From the IMG/VR virus record IMGVR_UViG_3300021426_000065, positions 167,173 to 179,225 of that record: a stretch of DNA of 12,053 nucleotides. One strand, written 5' to 3'. Made by a program: the position numbers and the translations under genes. Within the stretch, counting starts at the first letter, position 1, and each line of letters starts with the position of its first letter. Positions 3,161 to 11,561 of the stretch are shown piece by piece. A model generated the notes under the pieces. It was not told where the DNA came from and ran no database searches. It saw only the letters and a list, made by a program, of their open reading frames with translations. Source of the DNA: a virus. Taxonomy: Duplodnaviria > Heunggongvirae > Uroviricota > Caudoviricetes.

Positions 3161-3369
3161 TTTGCACTGATTGTATATTCGCTTATACTGACCCGAATGA
3201 TGATGAAGATGTTTATAGTTGCCCATTCTCTTTTCAGTATGCGTTCCATAGTAATGAAAAATGTCATTATCCGAAAATGTATGCTGGAATGATAAGAAAA
3301 TTAAGGCCAAAATTAAATCTATATAAGCATATACGAACTGCGATAGTGGAAACACTTGACGAAGATTAA
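3157..3369 (+). CDS. Small Cys-rich hypothetical protein, 70 aa
   Basis: AAGGAG SD at 3143-3148, 8 nt before the ATG. CTDC...C...C pattern; ends TAA. Confidence 0.75.
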   Translation: MICTDCIFAYTDPNDDEDVYSCPFSFQYAFHSNEKCHYPKMYAGMIRKLRPKLNLYKHIRTAIVETLDED

Positions 3370-3384
3370 AAATTATGCTATAAT
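3356..3384 (+). promoter_or_regulatory. Consensus sigma-70/sigma-A promoter with extended -10, upstream of dnaE
   Basis: TTGACG (3356-3361), 17-nt spacer, TG at 3376-3377, TATAAT (3379-3384). SD GAGGTG at 3404-3409 precedes the GTG start at 3415. Confidence 0.85.
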
Positions 3385-3414
3385 AATTACAGAATAATAG
3401 AAAGAGGTGGTTGT

Positions 3415-6400
3415 GTGAGTTTATACCCTGGTTCTTTGCATAATCACACCGATTATAGCAATGAGACACTTCGTGATTGTATAAATAAAGTAAATGCCCT
3501 AATTGATACAGCAATTCAATTAGGGCATGAATGCGTTGCAATTACAGACCATGAGACAATTTCAAGTTATATTAAAGCAGAAAAATATTATAAGAAAATT
3601 AAAGAACAGCATCCAGATTTTAAATTAATTCGCGGCAATGAGATTTATCTAACACGAAATGATTTAAACGCGAAAAACTTTGATAAAACCCGCGATAGAT
3701 ATTTTCACTTTATTCTTTTATGTAAAGATTTAGAAGGTTATCATCAAATTTGTGAATTATCTACAAGGGCATGGAAGCGGTCATATATTAGTCGTAGGTT
3801 GCGGCGGCGTCCAACTTATTATAGAGACTTAAAAGAAATAGTAGGAAAAAATCCGGGACATTTGATTGCTTCAAGTGCTTGCTTAGGTTCGTAGCTAGAT
3901 AGATTTTTACTTCAATATATGGATACCAATGATATTAATTTTTATGAAACAGCAAAGAATTGGTGTTTATATATTCAAAATATTTTTGGTGCTGGAAATT
4001 TTTATTTAGAGATGCAGCCTTCAAATGGGAAAGAACAGGTATTCGTAAACAAACAGTTATTAAAAATTAGTGAAGAATTAAATATTCCATATATTATCAC
4101 AACTGATAGTCATTATCTACGACCAGAAGATGCGTTTATTCATGAAACATTTTTAAATGCACAAGATGGTGAGCGTGAAGTTAAAAGTTTTTATGAAACA
4201 ACTTATATGATGACGGATGAAGAGATTCGTTCATTTTTCCCATATTTAACAGAAGAACAAATTGAGGCCGCGTATAAAACTATTAGAGAAATAAAAGATA
4301 AATGTGAAGATTTTAGTATTTTAAAGCCATTGGAAATTCCTCAACTTCCATGGAGAAAATTTAAGCGGCGGCAACCAGACGAAGTTTTTGCTTTTACAAG
4401 ACTAATGCCAGCATTAGAAAAATTTGTTAAATCTCAATATTATGCCGATAATCAATTAGCATTGGCGCTTATTGAAGGTATTCACGAGCATGAAGATTTA
4501 CAAAATCAAGCGGCATATGATGCTCTTAATGAGTGTCTAGAAATGACCTGGATTTCAAGTGAAGTAAATAAAGCGCAGTGGTCTGCATATTTCTTAAATC
4601 TTCAAAAGATTATAGATGAATGTTGGAACGCGGGAACATTAGTTATGCCCGCACGTGGCTCTGGTGGCGGTTTCTTACTTTTATATGCGTTAGATATTAT
4701 TCAAATTAATTGTCTGCGCGAAAAAACGCCCACGTTCCCATGGAGGTTCTTGAATCCAGCGCGTGTTAGCGTCCTTGATATTGACGTTGATATTTCTGGT
4801 ATTAAACGCGCACAAGTATTGGAACATTTAAGAGATTTCTACGGAGAAAACCGAGTATCAAATGTTGCGACTTTTAAGTTAGAGAAATCAAAATCTGCGA
4901 TATTAACCGCATGCCGCGGTCTTGGTATTGATGTAGATAATGCACAGTATGTTTCTTCATTAATTGGCGCGGAGCGTGGACAACTATATACATTGAAACA
5001 AATGTATTATGGTGATGAAGAAAATGGTCTTCAACCGAATCAGATGTTTATTAATGAAGTAAATAAATATCCAAAATTGTGGGAAGTTGCAAATCGTATC
5101 GAAGGATTGATTTGCGGAATGGGTATTCACGCGGGTGGTGTTGTATTTAAAGATAAAGATTTTACAGAATCTTCTGCCTTAATGCGTGCGCCCGATGGAA
5201 CAATCGTAACTCAATTTGAGCTTCATGATTTGGAAGATGTTTCAGAAATTAAGATGGATTTACTTTCAGTTGAAGCCGCGGATAAAATTCAAGTTTGCTT
5301 GGAAATGTTAGTTAAAGATGGTTATATTAAAGAATATCCAACTTTAAGAGAAACATATGAACATGCATTAAATGTATATCAACTTGAACGCGAAGATCCT
5401 AAAATGTGGGATATGGTACATGACCACAAAATTATTTCACTATTCCAGATGGAAAAAGATAGCGGTATACGCGGTATTGGATTAACAAATCCACGTAATG
5501 TAGATGACCTTGCAACCTTAAACTCCGTTATTCGTCTAATGGCTGCGGAGAAAGGCGCAGAATCACCACTTGATAAGTATGCGCGATTCCGTGAACATCC
5601 TTGGATGTGGGATAAAGAAATGCGCGAATATGGATTGACAGAAGAGCAAATGAAATTAATGCATAAAGAACTTGATATTTCAAATGGTCTTTCTATTACA
5701 CAGGAACAATTTATGAAACTGGTTCAGTTACCAGAATGTGGCGGCTGGGACTTACAATTCGCAGATAAGTTAAGAAAAAGTATTGCAAAAAAGAATCCAA
5801 AAGAATACGAAGAATTAACTGAAAAGTTTTTTAAAGGCATTAAAGAAAAAGGATGCGATGAGCGTTTTTGCCATTATGTATGGGATGTTCAGATTGCATT
5901 AAGCCGCGGCTATGGCTTCAATGCGAGTCACACGCTTGCTTATTCTATAATTGCGCTTCAAGAAATGAATCTAGCATATAAGTATCCAATCGTATATTGG
6001 AACACAGCTAATCTTATCGTAGATAGTGGCGGTGTGCAAACTGTCAATTTTGAAGATGATAATGATGAAGCAATGATTGAAGTAGAATTGGCGCCGGATG
6101 ATGACGCGGTTGATACCACGGCGGAAGATGATGATGAAGAATTAGAAGAGTGGGAAGAGGCAAATAAAGACATTACAACGAATGAAGAAGATAAGAAAAA
6201 GAAAAAGCAAAAGAATATAGATTATGGACGTATCGCGTCTATAATTGGTAAATTAGGTGGATACGGGATTCAAGTTTCACCGCCAGATATTAATAAATCT
6301 TCTTATACATTTACTCCAATCGCGGAAACAAACACAATCCTATACGGACTACGCGGCATCGCACGCATATCCGGAGAAAAAATTACTGAAATTATGGAAC

Positions 6401-7401
6401 AGCGCCCATACTTATCTTTAAGGGACTTTTTAGAAAAGAATAAATTAAATATTATACAGATTGTAAATTTGATTAAATCTGGGGCATTTGATGAAATTGA
6501 AAAAATGCCGCGAGAAGAAATAATGCGGAAGTTTCTTGAATCAACTATTGATAAAAAGGTAGATTTGAATTTAAGAAATATGCAGGCATTGATTACAAAA
6601 GATTTAATTCCAGAAGATATGGTGTTTTATAAGAAGTTATTCTTGTTTAATAAGTTCTTAAAAGATAATAAAGATGGTATTTATTATAGATTAAATGATG
6701 CGGCAATTAATTATATTACAAAGAATTTTGACGCAGATTTAATTGAAAATGGTATGCAGATTTCTCAAAAGGTTTGGGATAACATTTATAAGAAAGCAAT
6801 GGACCCAATGAGAGAATATATAAAAACGCATAAACAAGAAATGCTACAAAAATTAAATGACACGATTTATAATGAAGCCGCGGAAAAATATAGCGGTGGT
6901 AATATAAGTAAATGGGAAATGGATAGTATTAGTTTTTATTATCATGAGCATGAGCTTGCCACTGTGGCCTCACAGTATGATGATTTCTTTACTTTACCAG
7001 AAGAACCAGAAATTGAATATAGTTTTACTGGTACAAATGGACAAGAAATTAGAGTATATACTTTACATAAGATTATTGGTACAGTAATTGATAAAGATAA
7101 ATTACATAATACAGTAACGTTATTAACTCCAACCGGTGTTGTAACTGTTAAAGTATATAAGAATCAGTTTGCGATATATGATAAACAGTTATCGCAACGT
7201 GGTGAAGATGGCAAGAAACACGTTATTGAGAAGAGCTGGTTTAGTCGTGGCACCAAGTTAATGGTACAAGGAATTAGAAGAGAAAATAACTTCATTCCTA
7301 AAAAACGAAAGAACTCAGTATTCCCGGTTATTGCAAAAATTACATCAATAAATGATGATAATTTAACATTCCAGTTTGAACGTGCGGAGGTAGATGAATA
7401 A
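3415..7401 (+). CDS. dnaE: DNA polymerase III alpha subunit (DnaE-type, family C), 1328 aa with one TAG read as Gln
   Basis: PHP motifs HNHTDYS, AITDH, GNEIY, HFILL, SSACLGS(Q)L, TTDSHY; polymerase motifs ARGSGGG, LDIDVD, HAGGV, KMDLL, FQME, GYGFNASHTLAYS; C-terminal OB fold. The single in-frame TAG at 3892-3894 joins ORFs 3415-3894 and 3919-7401. GTG start with SD; ends TAA. Confidence 0.95.
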
Positions 7402-8480
7402 TGATTGGACTTGTTGATTATGATTTCTATTCCGCCTCTGCTATAACAAAATTAATTCCTAACATAGAAATAATGAAGCTTGCAACATACTATAAGGCGG
7501 AAAGAAATATTTTCTGCCGCCTTATAGATTTAAATGAAACGGAATTAACAAATTATGATAAGATATATTTTTTCAGTGAAAGTGAGCGGCCAATTCAAGT
7601 TCCTGACGCATTTAAAAAAACAACAAATATAATTTTTGGTGGCACCAATTTTACTAAAAATTATATTCCATTTGAAGACCAAATTATTGATTATACAATT
7701 CCGCGGCCAGCAATATACAAAGAAATACTTAAAAAGAAATATCAAGAAGGAATTAAATCACATGTAATTACGCATATATTGGACGATAGTTATTATAGGA
7801 TGTTCGCAGGCGACAAGGTATTGCCAATTCCGCCAGTAAAAACAAAAAAGCGTATTTTTATATTTGATAAAGATATATTTCATCCTGGATGGGAAGATGT
7901 TCTTAATAAAGTCGCAGAACGTAATCCAGCAAAAATCTTAACTATTCATCCCGCGCGATGTAAGACCTTAACATAGTATTTTACTTTACGTGGAATTGAA
8001 AAAATGGGTCGCGCGAATGAAATCATTCTTGACTTGGATATTCCACTTGATGAAGTACATTATATGTTAAAAAATTATAAAAATAAATTTTTAGCTGATA
8101 TTACAGAATCTTCTAATGTGTCTATTACGCTTGGTGGTGATTTTAGATATTCAAAGTTTTATTTAGAAGATTTTATATATAAAATGAATATATTATTTTC
8201 TTTTTGGGCTTGCAAAATCCCATTGAAAATTAAATATGAATAGCCATCACTTGGTTATGTAGACCCATTATTCCATCTTTCTAAATTGGTAGAAGGGTGG
8301 ACAAAAGGGCCATCAAAAAAAAATAAATCTTTGGCCGAGCGAACTCTTGTTTAGCAAAGCGGCAAAATCGGACCGGCGCGAGAAGCACGCAATTTATTAC
8401 AAGAAAAATACCCCGCAGCAAAAGATTTATTTAATCATAATTTTACAACACTATCTGCTAAGGGGGTTTGGAGAATATGA
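7401..8480 (+). CDS. Hypothetical protein, 359 aa (TAG=Gln); N-terminus resembles phage radical-SAM/Fe-S oxidoreductase-like proteins but lacks CxxxCxxC
   Basis: One frame from ATG 7401 (TAATG overlap with the dnaE stop, GGAGG SD) through TAG 7974, 8241 and 8352 to TGA 8478-8480, which overlaps the next ATG. IGLVDYD...PNIEIMKLATYYK...YDKIY...GGTN matches my recollection of the IGLIDVD...PNLALMK(L/I)S phage family. The CDS is solid; the family call is tentative. Confidence 0.75.
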
Positions 8481-8692
8481 TAGAAGAAATTATTGCAGAA
8501 AAAGAGCGATTGGATAAAGAATTAAAAATCGCCCTTGCAACTATGGAAAAGAAAAGTACAATAAAAGAAATCCAAGCAAAAATGCGTGTGAATTAGAGCA
8601 GATGCCCGCATTTTGATGCTAGATATAATTTCGTATGGGTTGATGATACTTGCCCATATTGTGGGAAAAAACATGTTGGGAGGCCAGAATAA
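8477..8692 (+). CDS. Small protein with an N-terminal helix and a C-terminal zinc ribbon, 71 aa (TAG=Gln)
   Basis: MIEEIIAEKERLDKELKIALATMEKKSTIKEIQAKMRVN(Q)SRCPHFDARYNFVWVDDTCPYCGKKHVGRPE. TAG at 8594; CPH...CPYCG. ATGA overlap upstream; its TAA directly abuts the next ATG. Confidence 0.8.
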
Positions 8693-8905
8693 ATGATAGT
8701 AAAACTATATACATTACCGAACTGCGGAATATGCCATATGGTAAAAACTAAATTGTAGAATAAAAATATTTTATTTGAAGAACATGACTTCCAAGAAATT
8801 GCTGACGTTATCCATTCTGATCACGCCCCAGCGCTTGAAGTTGAAAATAATATTTATAATAGTCCAACTGAAATAGTGCAATGGATTAATAATTACGAGG
8901 AGTGA
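8693..8905 (+). CDS. nrdH: NrdH/glutaredoxin-like redoxin, 70 aa (TAG=Gln)
   Basis: MIVKLYTLPNCGICHMVKTKL(Q)NKNILFEEHDFQEIADVIHSDHAPALEVENNIYNSPTEIVQWINNYEE. CxxC after beta-1 (LYTLPNCGIC), a cis-Pro-type AP motif and glutaredoxin size. TAG at 8756; GGGAGG SD. Missed by the ORF track. Confidence 0.88.
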
Positions 8906-8910
8906 TTTTA

Positions 8911-10833
8911 ATGGATATTAAAGTTAGATTAAGTAAAAATTTCTAGACTTTATATAATAGATTAAGTGAAAAATACGGCGAAGAAATGGCCTATCTAAAT
9001 GGCTTTGGAGATAAACAATTATCTTATACTGATTTTATAGATAATTTTATAGATAAAGATACTGTCGCGGATGCTTCTGTTGATGGTAATTCAAATGTCG
9101 GCAATAAAGATATGCGTACTTTAATGAATGAGATGCCTAAGCCACATCGGAAACTATTAGCTTTTAATAAAATTTATTATGAAATGAATAAGCGTTATGG
9201 CTTTAAGGACGCAAATGATTGGCTAGAAAAAGAATGGACGAAAGCGCTATACATGCATGATGCTGATACAAGCACTTATGTACATTATTGCTTTGCTTAT
9301 GATTTAAAAGATGTCGCAGAAAAAGGACTATTCTTTTTAAACAATTTTAATGCAGAGCCTCCACGGCATTTAAGCACATTTGTTGATTTTGTAAAAGAAT
9401 TTATTAGTTTCGCGGCAAATCGTAGTTCCGGTGCAGTAGGACTTCCAAATATTATTCCTTATATGTATTATTTCTGGAAGAAAGATTGCGACACTGGATA
9501 TGCAACTAAATCTCCCGAGTATTATGCTAGACAGCAAATTCAGCGATTTGTATATGCTGTTAATTAGCCTTACGTGCGAGATGGAATGCAATCGGCCTTT
9601 ACAAATTGCTCTGTTTTTGACATGGCTTATCTTGAAGCATTATTCGGAGGAGCACAGTTCCCTGACGGGTCTTTCATGATTGATAGTCTTAAAGAAATTC
9701 AAGATTTCCAAAAGGTATTTATGGAAACAATCGCCGAAATTCGTCAACATAATATGTTTACTTTCCCCGTATTAACGATTAGCTTACTTCGTAAAGATGG
9801 AAAATTTAAAGATGAAGAATTCGCGCGCTGGGGCATTGAACATAATAGGAAATGGAGCGATTCAAACTTATTTATTGATGATAGTGTTAATTCATTGAGT
9901 AATTGTTGCCGCTTAAAGAGTAATATTGAAGATTTAGGTTATTTTAATAGTATCGGTGGCACAGCATTAAAAGTTGGTTCTGTTAAAGTATCCACTGTAA
10001 ATTTGGCTAGGCTCGCACTTGAATATCCAGGAGATGAGGATTTGTATCTCGCGGCTTTACATGATTTAGTTGAACTTGATTGTAAGGTGTTAGATTGCGT
10101 GCGCCATATTATTAAACGCAATGTAGAAAAAGGATTGCTACCAAATTTCTCCAAGGGTATTGTAGATTTTGAACATTTATATAATACAGTGGGTATTATT
10201 GGTATTTATGAAACAATGAAAACATTTGGCTACACGCGCGAAGACGAACTTGGCAACGTATATTATACAGAAAAAGCTGATGCTTTCGGCAAGCGCATTT
10301 TTGAGATGCTGCATGCTACAAAAGATAACTTTGCTATTGATAAAGATTATAAGATTAATGTGGAGCAAATTCCAGGTGAATCCGCCGCGGCAAAAATGCA
10401 ATTAGCAGATGAATTCTTTTATCCAGACACGGTTGTAAAAGATTTGCCACTATATGGGAATCAATTCATTCCACTTGGTATTAAAACCACTATGATTGAG
10501 CGCATTCGTATTGCTTCTCTGTTTGATTCATATTGTAATGGTGGTTCTATCGCTCACCTAAACATTGATGCTCCATTTGATAGTTTTGAAAAAGCGTGGA
10601 ACGCTGTTAATTATATTGCCGACCAGGGTTTAACTTATTTTGCCTTTAATACAAAAATTCAAGCTTGTGAAAAAAACCATGCTTTCTATGGTAAGAAATG
10701 CCCCATTTGTGGCGGCGATGTCGCGACTGAATATACACGTATCGTAGGTTTTTATACGCCTATTAAAACTTGGTCCAAAGAAAGAAAGGCCGAATTTAAA
10801 ATGAGGCAATGGGAGAAAATTAATGAAACTTAA
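8911..10833 (+). CDS. nrdD: Anaerobic (class III) ribonucleoside-triphosphate reductase, 640 aa (TAG=Gln)
   Basis: GAGGAG SD 8 nt before ATG 8911. TAG at 8944 and 9565, the second inside YAVN(Q)PYVRDGMQSAFTN. Motifs HYCFAY, SSGAVG, FTFPVLT, SNCCRL, IPGES, Zn site CEKNH...CPICG and glycyl-radical TRIVGF. Ends TAA. Confidence 0.95.
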
Positions 10834-11305
10834 AGGAATAATTGATTGTGATTTTACAAATTATAAAGAACCAGTATTAACGCTAGAATTTCCTAAATGT
10901 AATTTTAAATGTGATAAATTAAATGGTCGCCAAGTTTGCCAAAATAGCGGCTTGGCAGCCGAACCAGATATAGATATTCCTTATGAAAAAATTTGGGAAC
11001 TATATCAACAAAATCCTTTAACCAAAGGTTTTTGTTTTCAAGGTTTGGAACCATTTGATAGCCCAAACGAATTAAATGAAATTATACATTTTATTAGAGA
11101 TGAAAAAAAGTGCAATGACCCAATAATTATTTATACAGGATATGGTCGCGGCGAAGCGTTCTTAATAGAGTATACTTTAAGACATATATTTACTAATATT
11201 ATAGTAAAGTGGGGCCGTTTCGTTCTTGGTGATGAACCACATTATGATGAAGTATTAGGAGTCAATCTAGCAAGTAATAATCAATATGCGGAGAAAGTAT
11301 CATGA
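10823..11305 (+). CDS. nrdG: Anaerobic RNR activating enzyme (radical SAM), 160 aa
   Basis: Directly follows nrdD (11-nt overlap). C-NFK-C-x8-C-QN motif, GFCFQGLEPF, IYTGY, IIVKWGRF and LASNNQY, typical of NrdG. Confidence 0.9.
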   Translation: MKLKGIIDCDFTNYKEPVLTLEFPKCNFKCDKLNGRQVCQNSGLAAEPDIDIPYEKIWELYQQNPLTKGFCFQGLEPFDSPNELNEIIHFIRDEKKCNDPIIIYTGYGRGEAFLIEYTLRHIFTNIIVKWGRFVLGDEPHYDEVLGVNLASNNQYAEKVS

Positions 11306-11499
11306 AAAAGCATTTGAATCCAGATAAAGAACTTGTAAATATTATTATAGAAGGATTAAAAAATAATCAAAGTTATTGTCCTTGTATTTATAATAGTTTA
11401 AATAAGCCAGAATATAAATGCCCATGCCAAGATTTTAGAGAAAAAACACAAATTGGTGAAGCATGTCATTGCGGCTTATATATAAAAGATGAAATGTAA
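11302..11499 (+). CDS. ftrB: Ferredoxin:thioredoxin reductase catalytic (beta) subunit-like protein, 65 aa
   Basis: YCPC...CPC...CHCGLY is the FTR catalytic-chain signature (4Fe-4S ligands plus redox-active disulfide). ATGA overlap with nrdG; GGAG SD; ends TAA. Confidence 0.88.
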   Translation: MKKHLNPDKELVNIIIEGLKNNQSYCPCIYNSLNKPEYKCPCQDFREKTQIGEACHCGLYIKDEM

Positions 11500-11501
11500 T
11501 C

Positions 11502-11532
11502 GCGGGAGAAAATTTCTCCCGCACCTTTTTAT
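11502..11532 (+). terminator. Rho-independent terminator after the RNR operon
   Basis: GCGGGAGAA-AAT-TTCTCCCGC perfect 9-bp stem (11502-11522) starting 2 nt after the ftrB stop, followed by ACCTTTTTATTT. Confidence 0.85.
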
Positions 11533-11561
11533 TTGACTTTTTATCCATTTTCTGTTATAAT
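11533..11561 (+). promoter_or_regulatory. Consensus sigma-70/sigma-A promoter with extended -10
   Basis: TTGACT (11533-11538), 17-nt spacer, TG at 11553-11554, TATAAT (11556-11561). SD GAGGTG at 11580-11585 precedes ATG 11590. Confidence 0.85.

What the first reader, a model, noticed from the sequence alone, without database searches (positions are those of the whole stretch)
8693..11499. Self-contained redoxin-dependent anaerobic RNR module: NrdH + NrdD(CCRL) + NrdG + FTR
Seen: four tightly packed genes closed by one terminator; the NrdD finger loop reads SNCCRL (Cys332-Cys333, 9904-9909). Established: formate-using class III RNRs (T4, E. coli) have MGCR here. The CC-type enzymes use a redoxin instead: Neisseria bacilliformis NrdD uses thioredoxin, and Methanosarcina barkeri NrdD uses NrdH re-reduced by a ferredoxin:disulfide reductase (Wei, Stubbe and colleagues). 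Inference: the phage carries the whole chain, host ferredoxin -> FTR -> NrdH -> NrdD, drawing on ferredoxin electrons for dNTP synthesis independently of formate and NADPH. This is the best candidate for an under-described system here. nrdH is invisible under code 11, so the module would be missed in standard annotation.
Basis: partly seen in the sequence, partly recalled or inferred. Interest (0 to 1): 0.8.

Follow-up and report, generated by a model that had tools for sequence, protein, structure and literature searches.

The report
Phage anaerobic RNR with mini-FTR
A rumen phage that reads TAG as glutamine carries a thiol-dependent anaerobic ribonucleotide reductase, its activase, a small glutaredoxin-like protein and a 65-residue iron-sulfur-type disulfide reductase. 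Together they probably let host ferredoxin pay for DNA-precursor synthesis; the cassette is common in gut phages but has never been tested.

Summary
Four translationally coupled + strand genes (8693-11499) end at one terminator. They only read correctly with TAG as Gln; a 99%-identical phage has CAG, CAG and CAA at the three TAG sites.

NrdD is the Thermotoga maritima type (NrdDh/NrdD2; E 4e-150). It has the invariant bottom Cys127, Cys332-Cys333, Glu485 and Gly613. The "NrdH" is a Grx-fold CxxC redoxin but is not a member of the NrdH family. The NrdG is a PFL-activase-like radical-SAM protein with an unusual CX3CX8C motif. The 65-aa protein is a true FTR/FDR-fold protein with six invariant Cys.

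Across 114 loci, redoxin-NrdD-NrdG is near-universal. The mini-FTR is present in 63% and was gained or lost at least 14 times. Five complete relatives lack it entirely, so the module is not "self-contained".

In Clostridia genomes the same mini-FTR sits beside thioredoxin (19 of 31 loci), sometimes with a ferredoxin. This supports the chain ferredoxin -> FTR -> redoxin -> NrdD.

Clostridium phage c-st (2005) already carries the same four genes. This scan has reported the same module on at least five other genomes. Nothing is tested biochemically. It is a new variant of a known kind, of moderate interest.

The parts
8693..8905 (+). Small glutaredoxin-fold redoxin (NrdH-like by position), 70 aa, with a C11-G-I-C14 active site, cis-Pro46 and a TAG(Gln) at codon 22
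   Evidence: PF00462 scores 28.3 bits against GA 22.9. The homologous gene lies directly upstream of nrdD in 111 of 114 loci. C11, C14 and P46 are invariant in 39 diverse homologues. The TAG is CAG in L001.
8911..10833 (+). NrdD, the class III RNR catalytic subunit of subclass NrdDh/NrdD2, 640 aa, without an ATP-cone
   Evidence: PF13597 scores 306 bits. T. maritima NrdD (4COI/4U3E) matches at E 4e-150 over residues 3-634. The profile scores 582 bits against TmNrdD but only 48 bits against formate-type 8P23. Y126, C127, S330-L335, E485, G613, C586, H590, C597 and C600 are invariant.
9904..9909 (+). Codons for Cys332-Cys333 of the SNCCRL loop, which aligns with T. maritima SCCR (residues 328-331) and T4 MGCR
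   Evidence: Aurelius 2015 (PMC4493059) reports that the C329A and C330A mutants of TmNrdD are inactive.
10823..11305 (+). NrdG-like radical-SAM activase, 160 aa, with the non-canonical cluster motif C26-x3-C30-x8-C39-Q-N and the GLEP motif (residues 74-77)
   Evidence: PF13353 scores 21.5 bits, just under GA 22, but 46 of 51 family members match it (best E 4e-10). The AF2 model has pLDDT 97.4 and its best PDB fold match is PFL-activating enzyme 3CB8 (TMq 0.61). The gene lies downstream of nrdD in 113 of 114 loci.
11302..11499 (+). Mini ferredoxin:disulfide reductase (FTR catalytic-subunit fold), 65 aa, with motifs C26-P-C28, C40-P-C42 and C55-H-C57
   Evidence: PF02943 scores 41.8 bits against GA 22. 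All six Cys are invariant. The AF2 model has pLDDT 93.8, and its top 13 PDB fold hits are all FTR or FDR structures (4TPU TMq 0.69). The best sequence hit in the PDB is M. acetivorans FDR 4TPU at E 2e-5.
11502..11532 (+). Intrinsic terminator-like hairpin (9 bp, 6 GC pairs) plus T run, which closes the operon
3356..8692 (+). Upstream genes packed without gaps ahead of nrdH, probably in the same transcript. These are a promoter-like site at 3356-3384, dnaE at 3415-7401, orf359 at 7401-8480 and a 74-aa Zn-ribbon-like ORF at 8468-8692
   Evidence: The dnaE-orf359-orf74-nrdH order is conserved in 38-39 loci.

Best explanation
The four genes form a redoxin-dependent class III ribonucleotide reductase system at the end of the phage's replication operon.

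Proposed mechanism:
- NrdG, a radical-SAM activase, installs the glycyl radical on Gly613 of NrdD.
- NrdD reduces NTPs using the Cys127/Cys333 pair with Glu485 as the base, as proposed for the N. bacilliformis and T. maritima type, and ends each turnover with a disulfide.
- The 70-aa Grx-fold redoxin (CGIC) re-reduces that disulfide.
- The 65-aa FTR/FDR-like [4Fe-4S] protein re-reduces the redoxin with two electrons taken one at a time from reduced host ferredoxin.

What is shown here: the gene identities, the signature residues, the predicted folds, the conserved synteny, and the association of this mini-FTR family with thioredoxin and ferredoxin genes in Clostridia.

What is inferred: every electron-transfer step, cluster binding, and the ferredoxin donor.

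The FTR is an optional booster, not an obligatory part. About one third of related phages lack it and must rely on a host reductase for the redoxin.
For: NrdD:
- It matches TmNrdD at E 4e-150 with all signature residues aligned: YC127FAY to Tm C125, C332-C333 to Tm C329-C330, and NVE485Q to Tm E495. These residues are invariant in 12 diverse phage homologues.
- TmNrdD is inactive with formate and needs a protein component larger than 10 kDa. N. bacilliformis NrdD uses thioredoxin (PMC4493059).

Synteny and selection:
- Of 114 loci, 111 have the redoxin, 113 have NrdG and 72 have the FTR, all in the same order and strand.
- All four genes show amino-acid conservation over saturating synonymous change.

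FTR:
- Pfam score is over threshold, six Cys are invariant, the model is confident, and only FTR and FDR structures are retrieved. One of these is the natural glutaredoxin-FDR fusion 7PWE.
- In a sample of 399 genomes of the class of a host-like genome, 82 carry this mini-FTR. In 31 loci examined it lies directly beside a WCxPC thioredoxin in 19 and beside a 2x[4Fe-4S] ferredoxin in 3. A further FTR-ferredoxin pair is seen in L125.

Own genome and precedent:
- The only redoxin is this one, there is no other RNR, and there is no Trx, TrxR-type flavoprotein, ferredoxin or flavodoxin.
- Clostridium phage c-st has grx-nrdG-nrdD-FTR-like genes in a different order.
- M. barkeri uses ferredoxin -> FDR -> NrdH -> NrdD (title and table cited in PMC9176816).
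Against: - No biochemical data exist for any component.
- The FTR is absent from 37% of related modules and from five complete relatives, and it was lost or gained at least 14 times. The redoxin-NrdD pair therefore works without it.
- crAss001 carries a mini-FTR but no NrdD, so the FTR is not specific to RNR.
- In cellular genomes its usual neighbour is a classical thioredoxin, not this Grx-like redoxin.
- One relative (L026) has a real NrdG-FTR fusion, which points at the activase instead.
- T. maritima, the closest characterised NrdD, has no FTR-B gene (control).
- The mini protein lacks about 40 residues of FTRc, the variable subunit and the rubredoxin domain of archaeal FDR. Its competence is assumed.
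Confidence: 0.6

Rival explanations
1. The mini-FTR is a general thiol-redox auxiliary gene. It reduces host thioredoxin(s) or other disulfides from ferredoxin and sits next to the RNR genes only as part of a nucleotide/redox gene neighbourhood. The phage redoxin would then be recycled by a host reductase.
For: crAss001 has the mini-FTR in a tRNA array and has no NrdD. Cellular homologues pair with classical thioredoxin, not with NrdD, in 19 of 31 loci against 2 of 31. One third of modules and five complete genomes lack the FTR. Between L014 and L016 it is a clean presence/absence cassette.
Against: Within this phage clade the FTR, when present, is always just downstream of nrdG on the same strand, usually with overlapping stop and start codons (72 loci). 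In c-st it is again inside the RNR cluster despite a different gene order. The phage's only thiol redoxin is the one next to NrdD.
Confidence: 0.2
2. The FTR-like protein works with the activase NrdG. It would deliver or gate the electron needed to reduce the radical-SAM cluster, or stabilise the unusual CX3C-Xn-C cluster, and would not act on the redoxin.
For: The FTR gene is translationally coupled to nrdG (ATGA overlap). L026 encodes one uninterrupted 250-aa NrdG-FTR protein with no stop and no TAG. NrdG has a non-canonical and variable Cys spacing (X4 to X12). The phage encodes no flavodoxin or ferredoxin for activation.
Against: There is only one fusion among 72 FTR-positive loci, and a single-base change at the ATGA overlap could create it. 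In c-st the FTR follows nrdD, not nrdG, and several loci have 280-370 bp inserted between nrdG and the FTR gene. By established knowledge, the FTR fold uses its cluster together with an adjacent disulfide for two-electron disulfide reduction and is not a low-potential one-electron carrier. All known relatives and gene neighbours are thioredoxin-type substrates. FTR-less phages keep the same NrdG motif.
Confidence: 0.1
3. The NrdD is an ordinary formate-dependent enzyme, and the redoxin and FTR genes are unrelated passengers.
For: Most characterised class III RNRs, including phage T4 NrdD, use formate (PMC4390871).
Against: The profile scores 582 bits against TmNrdD, only 40-48 bits against formate-type structures, and does not find T4 NrdD. 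TmNrdD showed no activity with formate. The CC pair and Glu485 are invariant. The redoxin gene is upstream of nrdD in 111 of 114 loci.
Confidence: 0.05

Closest known systems
Thermotoga maritima NrdD (PDB 4COI, 4U3E), subclass NrdDh (Aurelius et al. 2015, PMC4493059), which by my recollection equals NrdD2 of Wei et al. 2014; and N. bacilliformis NrdD with thioredoxin
   Same: The two align over the full length (E 4e-150). They share the bottom Cys, the CC pair in x-C-C-R-L, the Glu, the SIGG segment, the Cys/His zinc site and the glycyl-radical loop. Neither has an ATP-cone.
   Different: The loop reads NCCR instead of SCCR or MCCR. The 14-residue insert that follows the motif in T. maritima is missing. 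Position Tm Tyr227 is Phe here, as in NrdDh groups other than NrdDh1. The phage gene is flanked by its own redoxin and, in two thirds of cases, by an FTR-like gene, which T. maritima lacks (control).
Methanosarcina barkeri class III RNR system: ferredoxin -> ferredoxin:disulfide reductase (FDR) -> NrdH-like redoxin -> NrdD3 (Wei et al. 2015, Biochemistry 54:7019; not held in the library and known to me from its abstract)
   Same: The logic and parts list are the same: a class III RNR, an activase, a small redoxin and an FTR-family [4Fe-4S] disulfide reductase in one gene cluster. The mini-FTR is closer in sequence to archaeal FDR (4TPU, E 2e-5) than to plant or cyanobacterial FTRc (E 0.07-0.4).
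   Different: The catalytic subunit here is the NrdDh/NrdD2 type, not NrdD3. The reductase is 65 aa with no rubredoxin domain. Its third motif is CHC, as in plant FTR, where 4TPU has CYC. The system is encoded by a virus, and the FTR is optional.
Clostridium phage c-st genes CST074-CST077 (NC_007581; also phage D-1873)
   Same: The same four functions sit in one cluster: glutaredoxin, NrdG, NrdD (Thermotoga-like) and a 63-aa CPC/CMC/CHC protein annotated as 'weakly similar to FTR catalytic chain', followed by a dUTPase.
   Different: The gene order is grx-nrdG-nrdD-ftr. NrdD is 978 aa, about 340 aa longer than here; I did not examine what the extra sequence is. NrdG has CX5CX2C instead of CX3CX8C. 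The phage uses the standard genetic code. FTR identity is 45%.
Mini-FTR next to thioredoxin (with or without ferredoxin) in Clostridia genomes, and the Desulfotalea psychrophila Grx-FDR fusion (PDB 7PWE)
   Same: It is the same 65-70 aa protein family (E 1e-15 to 1e-20 against the phage profile). Its partner is a thiol redoxin, and sometimes a 2x[4Fe-4S] ferredoxin is in the same cluster. 7PWE shows that the FDR domain and a Grx domain can work as one protein.
   Different: The cellular partner is a classical WCxPC thioredoxin with no RNR nearby. In the phage the partner is a 70-aa Grx-like CxxC protein tied to NrdD.

Membership tests
Class III RNR catalytic subunit NrdD, subclass NrdDh / NrdD2 (thiol-dependent) | NRDD domain and full-length homology to a structurally characterised NrdDh enzyme | tested here: met
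   PF13597 scores 306 bits. TmNrdD matches at E 4e-150 over residues 3-634. The profile scores 582 bits, against 48 bits or less for formate-type structures.
Class III RNR catalytic subunit NrdD, subclass NrdDh / NrdD2 (thiol-dependent) | Adjacent Cys pair in the (S/M)CCR motif | tested here: met
   S330-N331-C332-C333-R334-L335 is invariant in 12 diverse homologues and aligns with Tm SCCR. The residue before CC is Asn rather than Ser or Met, which is a variant.
Class III RNR catalytic subunit NrdD, subclass NrdDh / NrdD2 (thiol-dependent) | Bottom-face Cys (Tm C125), preceding Tyr (Tm Y124), and active-site Glu (Tm E495 / Nb E438) | tested here: met
   Y126-C127 and E485 are aligned and invariant.
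Class III RNR catalytic subunit NrdD, subclass NrdDh / NrdD2 (thiol-dependent) | C-terminal glycyl-radical loop and zinc site | tested here: met
   The R-I-V-G613-F loop and C586, H590, C597 and C600 are invariant.
Class III RNR catalytic subunit NrdD, subclass NrdDh / NrdD2 (thiol-dependent) | Turnover with a thiol redoxin and not with formate | not testable with these tools
   Needs an anaerobic enzyme assay.
NrdG, glycyl-radical activase (radical SAM) | Canonical CX3CX2C cluster motif | tested here: not met
   The motif is C26-x3-C30-x8-C39. In the family the second spacer is 8 (87 loci), 4 (16), 10 (6), 7 (2) or 12 (1). The three Cys are invariant.
NrdG, glycyl-radical activase (radical SAM) | Family HMM match, SAM-binding GGEP-like motif, and activase-like fold | tested here: met
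   PF13353 matches 46 of 51 members (best E 4e-10), though the window copy scores 21.5 against GA 22. G74, E76 and P77 are invariant. AF2 pLDDT is 97.4, and the top PDB fold hit is PFL-AE 3CB8 (TMq 0.61, prob 1.0). TIGR02491 scores only 22.5 against a cut-off of 126.
NrdG, glycyl-radical activase (radical SAM) | Encoded next to nrdD | tested here: met
   113 of 114 loci.
Ferredoxin:thioredoxin reductase catalytic subunit / ferredoxin:disulfide reductase (PF02943) | Family HMM score over the curated cut-off | tested here: met
   41.8 bits against 22, covering profile positions 19-89 of 106.
Ferredoxin:thioredoxin reductase catalytic subunit / ferredoxin:disulfide reductase (PF02943) | Six Cys in CPC...CxC...CHC (four cluster ligands plus the redox disulfide) | tested here: met
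   C26, C28, C40, C42, C55 and C57 are invariant in 71 and in 62 sequences. All six align with the Cys of 4TPU and of plant FTRc. The middle residues vary (CMC is commonest; the third motif is CHC, CYC, CQC, CCC, CDC, CNC or CLC).
Ferredoxin:thioredoxin reductase catalytic subunit / ferredoxin:disulfide reductase (PF02943) | FTRc/FDR fold | tested here: met
   AF2 pLDDT is 93.8. Foldseek ranks 1-13 are all FTR or FDR structures (TMq 0.63-0.70, prob 1.0), and the next hits have E above 3.
Ferredoxin:thioredoxin reductase catalytic subunit / ferredoxin:disulfide reductase (PF02943) | Accessory parts of the known enzymes: the variable subunit (plant/cyanobacterial FTR) or the rubredoxin domain (archaeal FDR) | tested here: not met
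   There is no PF02941 in the genome. The protein is 65 aa and consists of the core only.
Ferredoxin:thioredoxin reductase catalytic subunit / ferredoxin:disulfide reductase (PF02943) | [4Fe-4S] binding and ferredoxin-dependent disulfide reduction | not testable with these tools
   Needs spectroscopy and an assay.
NrdH-redoxin (TIGR02194) | Family HMM score over the cut-off; by my recollection also the CVQC and WSGFRP motifs | tested here: not met
   It scores 25.7 bits against 85.75. The best NCBIfam match is YruB-type TIGR02196, at 33.5 bits against 88.55. The active site is CGIC and I see no WSGFRP-like motif in the 70 aa. It is a Grx-fold redoxin: PF00462 scores 28.3 against 22.9, and C11, C14 and P46 are invariant.
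M. barkeri-type NrdD3 system | NrdD of the NrdD3 subtype | not tested
The enzyme is clearly T. maritima-like, which the literature places in a different subtype.

The most novel reading that the evidence does not exclude
The FTR-fold mini-protein is a physical partner of the activase NrdG. This reading rests on the natural NrdG-FTR fusion in L026 and on the non-canonical CX3C-X(4-12)-C cluster motif of this NrdG family. The protein would couple host ferredoxin to glycyl-radical generation, or to both activation and turnover. That would be a new role for the FTR fold and a new way of activating a glycyl-radical enzyme.
Probability: 0.1. Interest if true: 0.75.

Novelty: new variant of a known kind. 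Interest (0 to 1): 0.5.

Why it matters
If the chain works as inferred, a large group of gut and rumen phages of Clostridia makes dNTPs with electrons from the host's reduced ferredoxin pool, rather than from formate or NADPH.

It would be the first link between an NrdDh/NrdD2-type reductase and an FDR-type reductase. So far that link is known only for NrdD3 in a methanogen.

The 65-aa protein would be about the smallest working [4Fe-4S] disulfide reductase. The same mini-FTR next to thioredoxin in about a fifth of the sampled Clostridia genomes suggests an under-studied thioredoxin-reducing system in gut anaerobes.

The natural presence/absence pairs, such as L014 and L016, offer a ready test of what the gene contributes.

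Tried and rejected
- blastn of the module against GenBank phages found no match. Only protein-level searches find relatives.
- The Wei et al. 2014 and 2015 papers are not in the held library. Their content is cited from other papers and from my memory.
- Two literature searches for a phage FTR-NrdD link and two broader FDR/FTR searches found no paper that interprets the module. The crAss001 paper only lists gp5 as an auxiliary gene.
- Longer FTR-family representatives (124-198 aa) were scanned for fused redoxin or radical-SAM domains and gave nothing informative.
- The look-up of encoding contigs for distant FTR representatives returned mostly very short contigs.
- I compared the CxxC motif of the redoxin between FTR-positive and FTR-negative phages and saw no clean split. 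CPKC and CPRC dominate both groups, while CGIC, CPIC and CPSC are mostly FTR-positive, which may only reflect phylogeny.
- I rejected the idea that NrdD's very high identity (90-95% against 40-70% for its neighbours) reflects recent transfer. Synonymous divergence is the same for all four genes.
- Expression: contigs from RNA libraries of the source sample cover 8762-8981, 9235-9476 and 9676-9842 at 95-99% identity. DNA carry-over cannot be excluded and nrdG/FTR are not covered in those runs, so this is not counted as evidence.
- I did not build a phylogeny against NrdD1 and NrdD3 references because no such sequences were available.
Full report
**What is in the sequence**

The window is the last 12 kb of a 179,225-bp virus record rated 100% complete. 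It is AT-rich (30-37% GC) and every long gene is on the + strand.

Under table 11 the region 8693-11499 is broken. nrdH stops at codon 22 and nrdD splits in two. With TAG read as Gln it gives four clean genes:
- a 70-aa redoxin, 8693-8905
- NrdD, 8911-10833
- NrdG, 10823-11305
- a 65-aa FTR-like protein, 11302-11499

TAG = Gln is directly supported. In locus L001, whose four proteins are 98-100% identical, the three TAG codons of nrdH and nrdD are CAG, CAG and CAA. NrdD residue 219 is Gln in all 12 aligned homologues.

The genes are translationally coupled, with a 5-nt gap, an 11-nt overlap and an ATGA overlap. Each start is preceded by a GGAG-type site. A 9-bp hairpin with a T run at 11502-11522 ends the unit, and a near-consensus promoter-like site follows at 11533-11561.

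There is no comparable promoter just upstream of nrdH. dnaE, a 359-aa ORF and a 74-aa Zn-ribbon-like ORF run into nrdH without gaps, and the nearest strong promoter-like site is at 3356-3384. The RNR genes therefore look like the distal end of the replication operon and not a separate module.

**The catalytic subunit**

NrdD matches PF13597 at 306 bits and the T. maritima enzyme (4COI, 4U3E) at E 4e-150 over its whole length. A profile of 12 phage homologues scores 582 bits against TmNrdD. It scores only 40-48 bits against formate-type structures (8P23, 9D3X) and does not retrieve T4 NrdD.

Signature residues align as follows:
- Y126-C127 with Tm Y124-C125
- S-N-C332-C333-R-L with Tm S-C329-C330-R
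- N-V-E485-Q with Tm E495
- R-I-V-G613-F with the Tm glycyl loop
- C586/H590/C597/C600 with the zinc site

All are invariant in the phage alignment.

Aurelius et al. (PMC4493059) place TmNrdD in subclass NrdDh, defined by the SCCR motif, where T4 has MGCR. They report no activity with formate, but activity with a cell-extract component larger than 10 kDa. C329A and C330A are dead. N. bacilliformis NrdD (NrdDh3) uses thioredoxin. They also note that two Clostridium phages and some unclassified phage sequences belong to NrdDh.

This phage enzyme is thus a member of the thiol-dependent subclass, with small differences. It has Asn before the CC pair, lacks the 14-residue Thermotoga insert, and has Phe at Tm position 227.

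**The other three proteins**

- **Redoxin.** It passes PF00462 (28.3 against 22.9). Its family has invariant C11, C14 and the cis-Pro46 typical of the thioredoxin fold. It fails every curated NCBIfam cut-off, including NrdH (25.7 against 85.75). It is NrdH-like by position and probable role, not by family.
- **NrdG.** It is weak by HMM (PF13353 21.5 against 22; TIGR02491 22.5 against 126). However, 46 of 51 family members match PF13353. The AF2 model is very confident (pLDDT 97.4), and its best structural match is pyruvate formate-lyase activating enzyme, followed by viperins and QueE. Its three invariant Cys are spaced CX3C-X8-C, followed by Q-N. Across the family the second spacer is 4 to 12 residues, not the canonical 2.
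- **The 65-aa protein.** It passes PF02943 (41.8 against 22) and has six invariant Cys in CPC-x11-CPC-x12-CHC. It is closest in sequence to the M. acetivorans ferredoxin-dependent disulfide reductase 4TPU (E 2e-5; all six Cys aligned). It folds with pLDDT 93.8 into a structure whose 13 best PDB matches are all FTR or FDR structures, including the Desulfotalea glutaredoxin-FDR fusion 7PWE. It lacks the flanking roughly 40 residues of FTRc. The genome has no variable subunit, and the protein has no room for a rubredoxin domain.

**Comparative survey**

Searching with NrdD gave 80 IMG/VR loci and 33 loci in GTDB genomes. The GTDB loci are mostly Clostridia bins, some on contigs of 250-360 kb and so probably prophages.

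Iterated HMMs on code-15 ORFs gave these counts across the 114 loci:

| Gene | Position | Loci |
|---|---|---|
| Redoxin | directly upstream of nrdD | 111 of 114 |
| NrdG | directly downstream of nrdD | 113 of 114 |
| Mini-FTR | after nrdG | 72 of 114 |

All four genes keep their amino acids over equal, near-saturated synonymous divergence, so all are under purifying selection.

The FTR is optional:
- Five relatives rated 95-100% complete have no PF02943 match anywhere.
- On a tree of 91 distinct NrdDs, presence or absence needs 20 changes by parsimony, and at least 14 are forced by well-supported branches.
- L014 and L016 differ by a clean indel of exactly this ORF.

The phage itself encodes no other redoxin, no other RNR, and no ferredoxin, flavodoxin or flavin disulfide reductase.

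**What the mini-FTR does elsewhere**

The family has 1,112 clusters at E <= 1e-3 among 1.84 billion representatives, and the 150 best-scoring are mostly 60-130 aa.

In 399 genomes sampled from the class of one host-like genome, 82 carry a close homologue. In 31 such loci the 65-70 aa gene lies directly beside a WCxPC thioredoxin in 19, with a 2x[4Fe-4S] ferredoxin in 3, and beside nrdG or nrdD in only 2. Another relative sits next to a small ferredoxin.

This is independent guilt-by-association for the role of ferredoxin-dependent reduction of a thiol redoxin. It also suggests that the phages borrowed a host gene.

Among cultured phages:
- Clostridium phage c-st has glutaredoxin, NrdG, NrdD and a 63-aa "hypothetical, weakly similar to FTR" gene in one cluster, in a different order.
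- crAss001 gp5 is the same kind of protein. It sits in a tRNA array, and the genome has no NrdD.

**Mechanism and rivals**

The best-supported reading is host reduced ferredoxin -> mini-FTR -> Grx-like redoxin -> NrdD Cys pair. NrdG generates the glycyl radical, and the FTR step is an optional add-on (confidence about 0.6).

Rivals:
- The FTR is a general thioredoxin-system auxiliary gene, not specific to RNR (0.2). Support comes from crAss001, the cellular Trx pairing and the frequent loss.
- The FTR serves the activase (0.1). Support comes from the coupling to nrdG and one true NrdG-FTR fusion in L026. Against it stand the c-st gene order and the known chemistry of the fold.
- The enzyme uses formate after all (0.05).

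None of the electron-transfer steps has been measured.

**Comparison with what is known, and novelty**

The parts are known kinds:
- NrdDh/NrdD2 with a thiol reductant
- FDR -> NrdH -> NrdD3 in M. barkeri (cited in PMC9176816; the original paper was not readable here)

What is new is the combination:
- an NrdDh-type enzyme with an FDR-type reductase
- a bare 65-aa form of that reductase
- on phage genomes, as a frequent but dispensable cassette

In the held literature I found no paper that interprets it, and PHROGs lists the family as unknown function.

The gene set has been in GenBank since phage c-st. This scan has already reported the same module, with the same reading, on at least five other genomes. 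Those are AI notes and are not independent evidence.

I therefore class it as a new variant of a known kind, with moderate interest. The core chain is the best explanation, but "self-contained", "independent of NADPH" and "NrdH" are overstated.

Noticed in passing
window 10898-10939 (NrdG residues 26-39); family in L001-L114: The NrdG family here has three invariant Cys spaced CX3C-X8-C instead of the canonical radical-SAM CX3CX2C. The second spacer varies between relatives: 8 in 87 loci, 4 in 16, 10 in 6, 7 in 2 and 12 in 1. Phage c-st NrdG instead has CX5CX2C.
   Followed up: partly
L026:5106-5858: One relative encodes a single uninterrupted 250-aa NrdG-FTR fusion protein, with no stop or TAG between the domains and CMC as the middle motif. 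It is the only such case among 72 FTR-positive loci.
   Followed up: partly
L121, L153, L154 (and L131-L156 generally): In Clostridia genomes, 65-77 aa mini-FTR genes lie directly next to WCxPC thioredoxin genes (19 of 31 loci) and sometimes a 2x[4Fe-4S] ferredoxin. About 21% of 399 sampled genomes of the class have a homologue. This looks like an under-described ferredoxin-linked thioredoxin system.
   Followed up: partly
L098, L103, L107, L108, L110, L111, L114, L021, L056: In several relatives nrdD is interrupted. One has a continuous 950-aa ORF (intein-like). In others the gene is split by 0.3-1.3 kb inserts that carry ORFs (intron or homing-endonuclease-like).
   Followed up: no
L029:5358-5930; L067:3180-3980: Some FTR-like ORFs appear extended or fused. 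L029 has CCC...CPC...CDC followed by a roughly 110-aa C-terminal domain. L067 has a roughly 200-aa N-terminal extension that resembles a homing endonuclease, though this may be an artefact of calling the longest ORF.
   Followed up: no
window 8468-8692: A 74-aa ORF with a coiled-coil N-terminus and a C-P-H...C-P-Y-C zinc-ribbon-like end, with one TAG, lies directly before nrdH. It is conserved there in 39 loci together with the 359-aa ORF at 7401-8480. It matches no Pfam, PHROG or NCBIfam family.
   Followed up: no
L001:4921-5175 versus window 10823-10833: The 99%-identical phage L001 has about 255 bp between nrdD and nrdG, where the window has an 11-nt overlap. Its nrdD also has lower synonymous identity (same-codon fraction 0.87) than its nrdH, nrdG and FTR genes (0.92-0.97).
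   Followed up: no
L116 (Bacteroides phage crAss001) 2271-2468: crAss001 gp5, annotated as a putative ferredoxin-thioredoxin reductase, is a 43%-identical mini-FTR embedded in the tRNA array of a genome with no NrdD. It overlaps a tRNA-Ser annotation by 9 nt.
   Followed up: partly
window 65258-66151 of G000 (outside the window): The phage genome carries a second radical-SAM-type ORF (297 aa, canonical CX3CX2C motif) far from the RNR genes.
   Followed up: no
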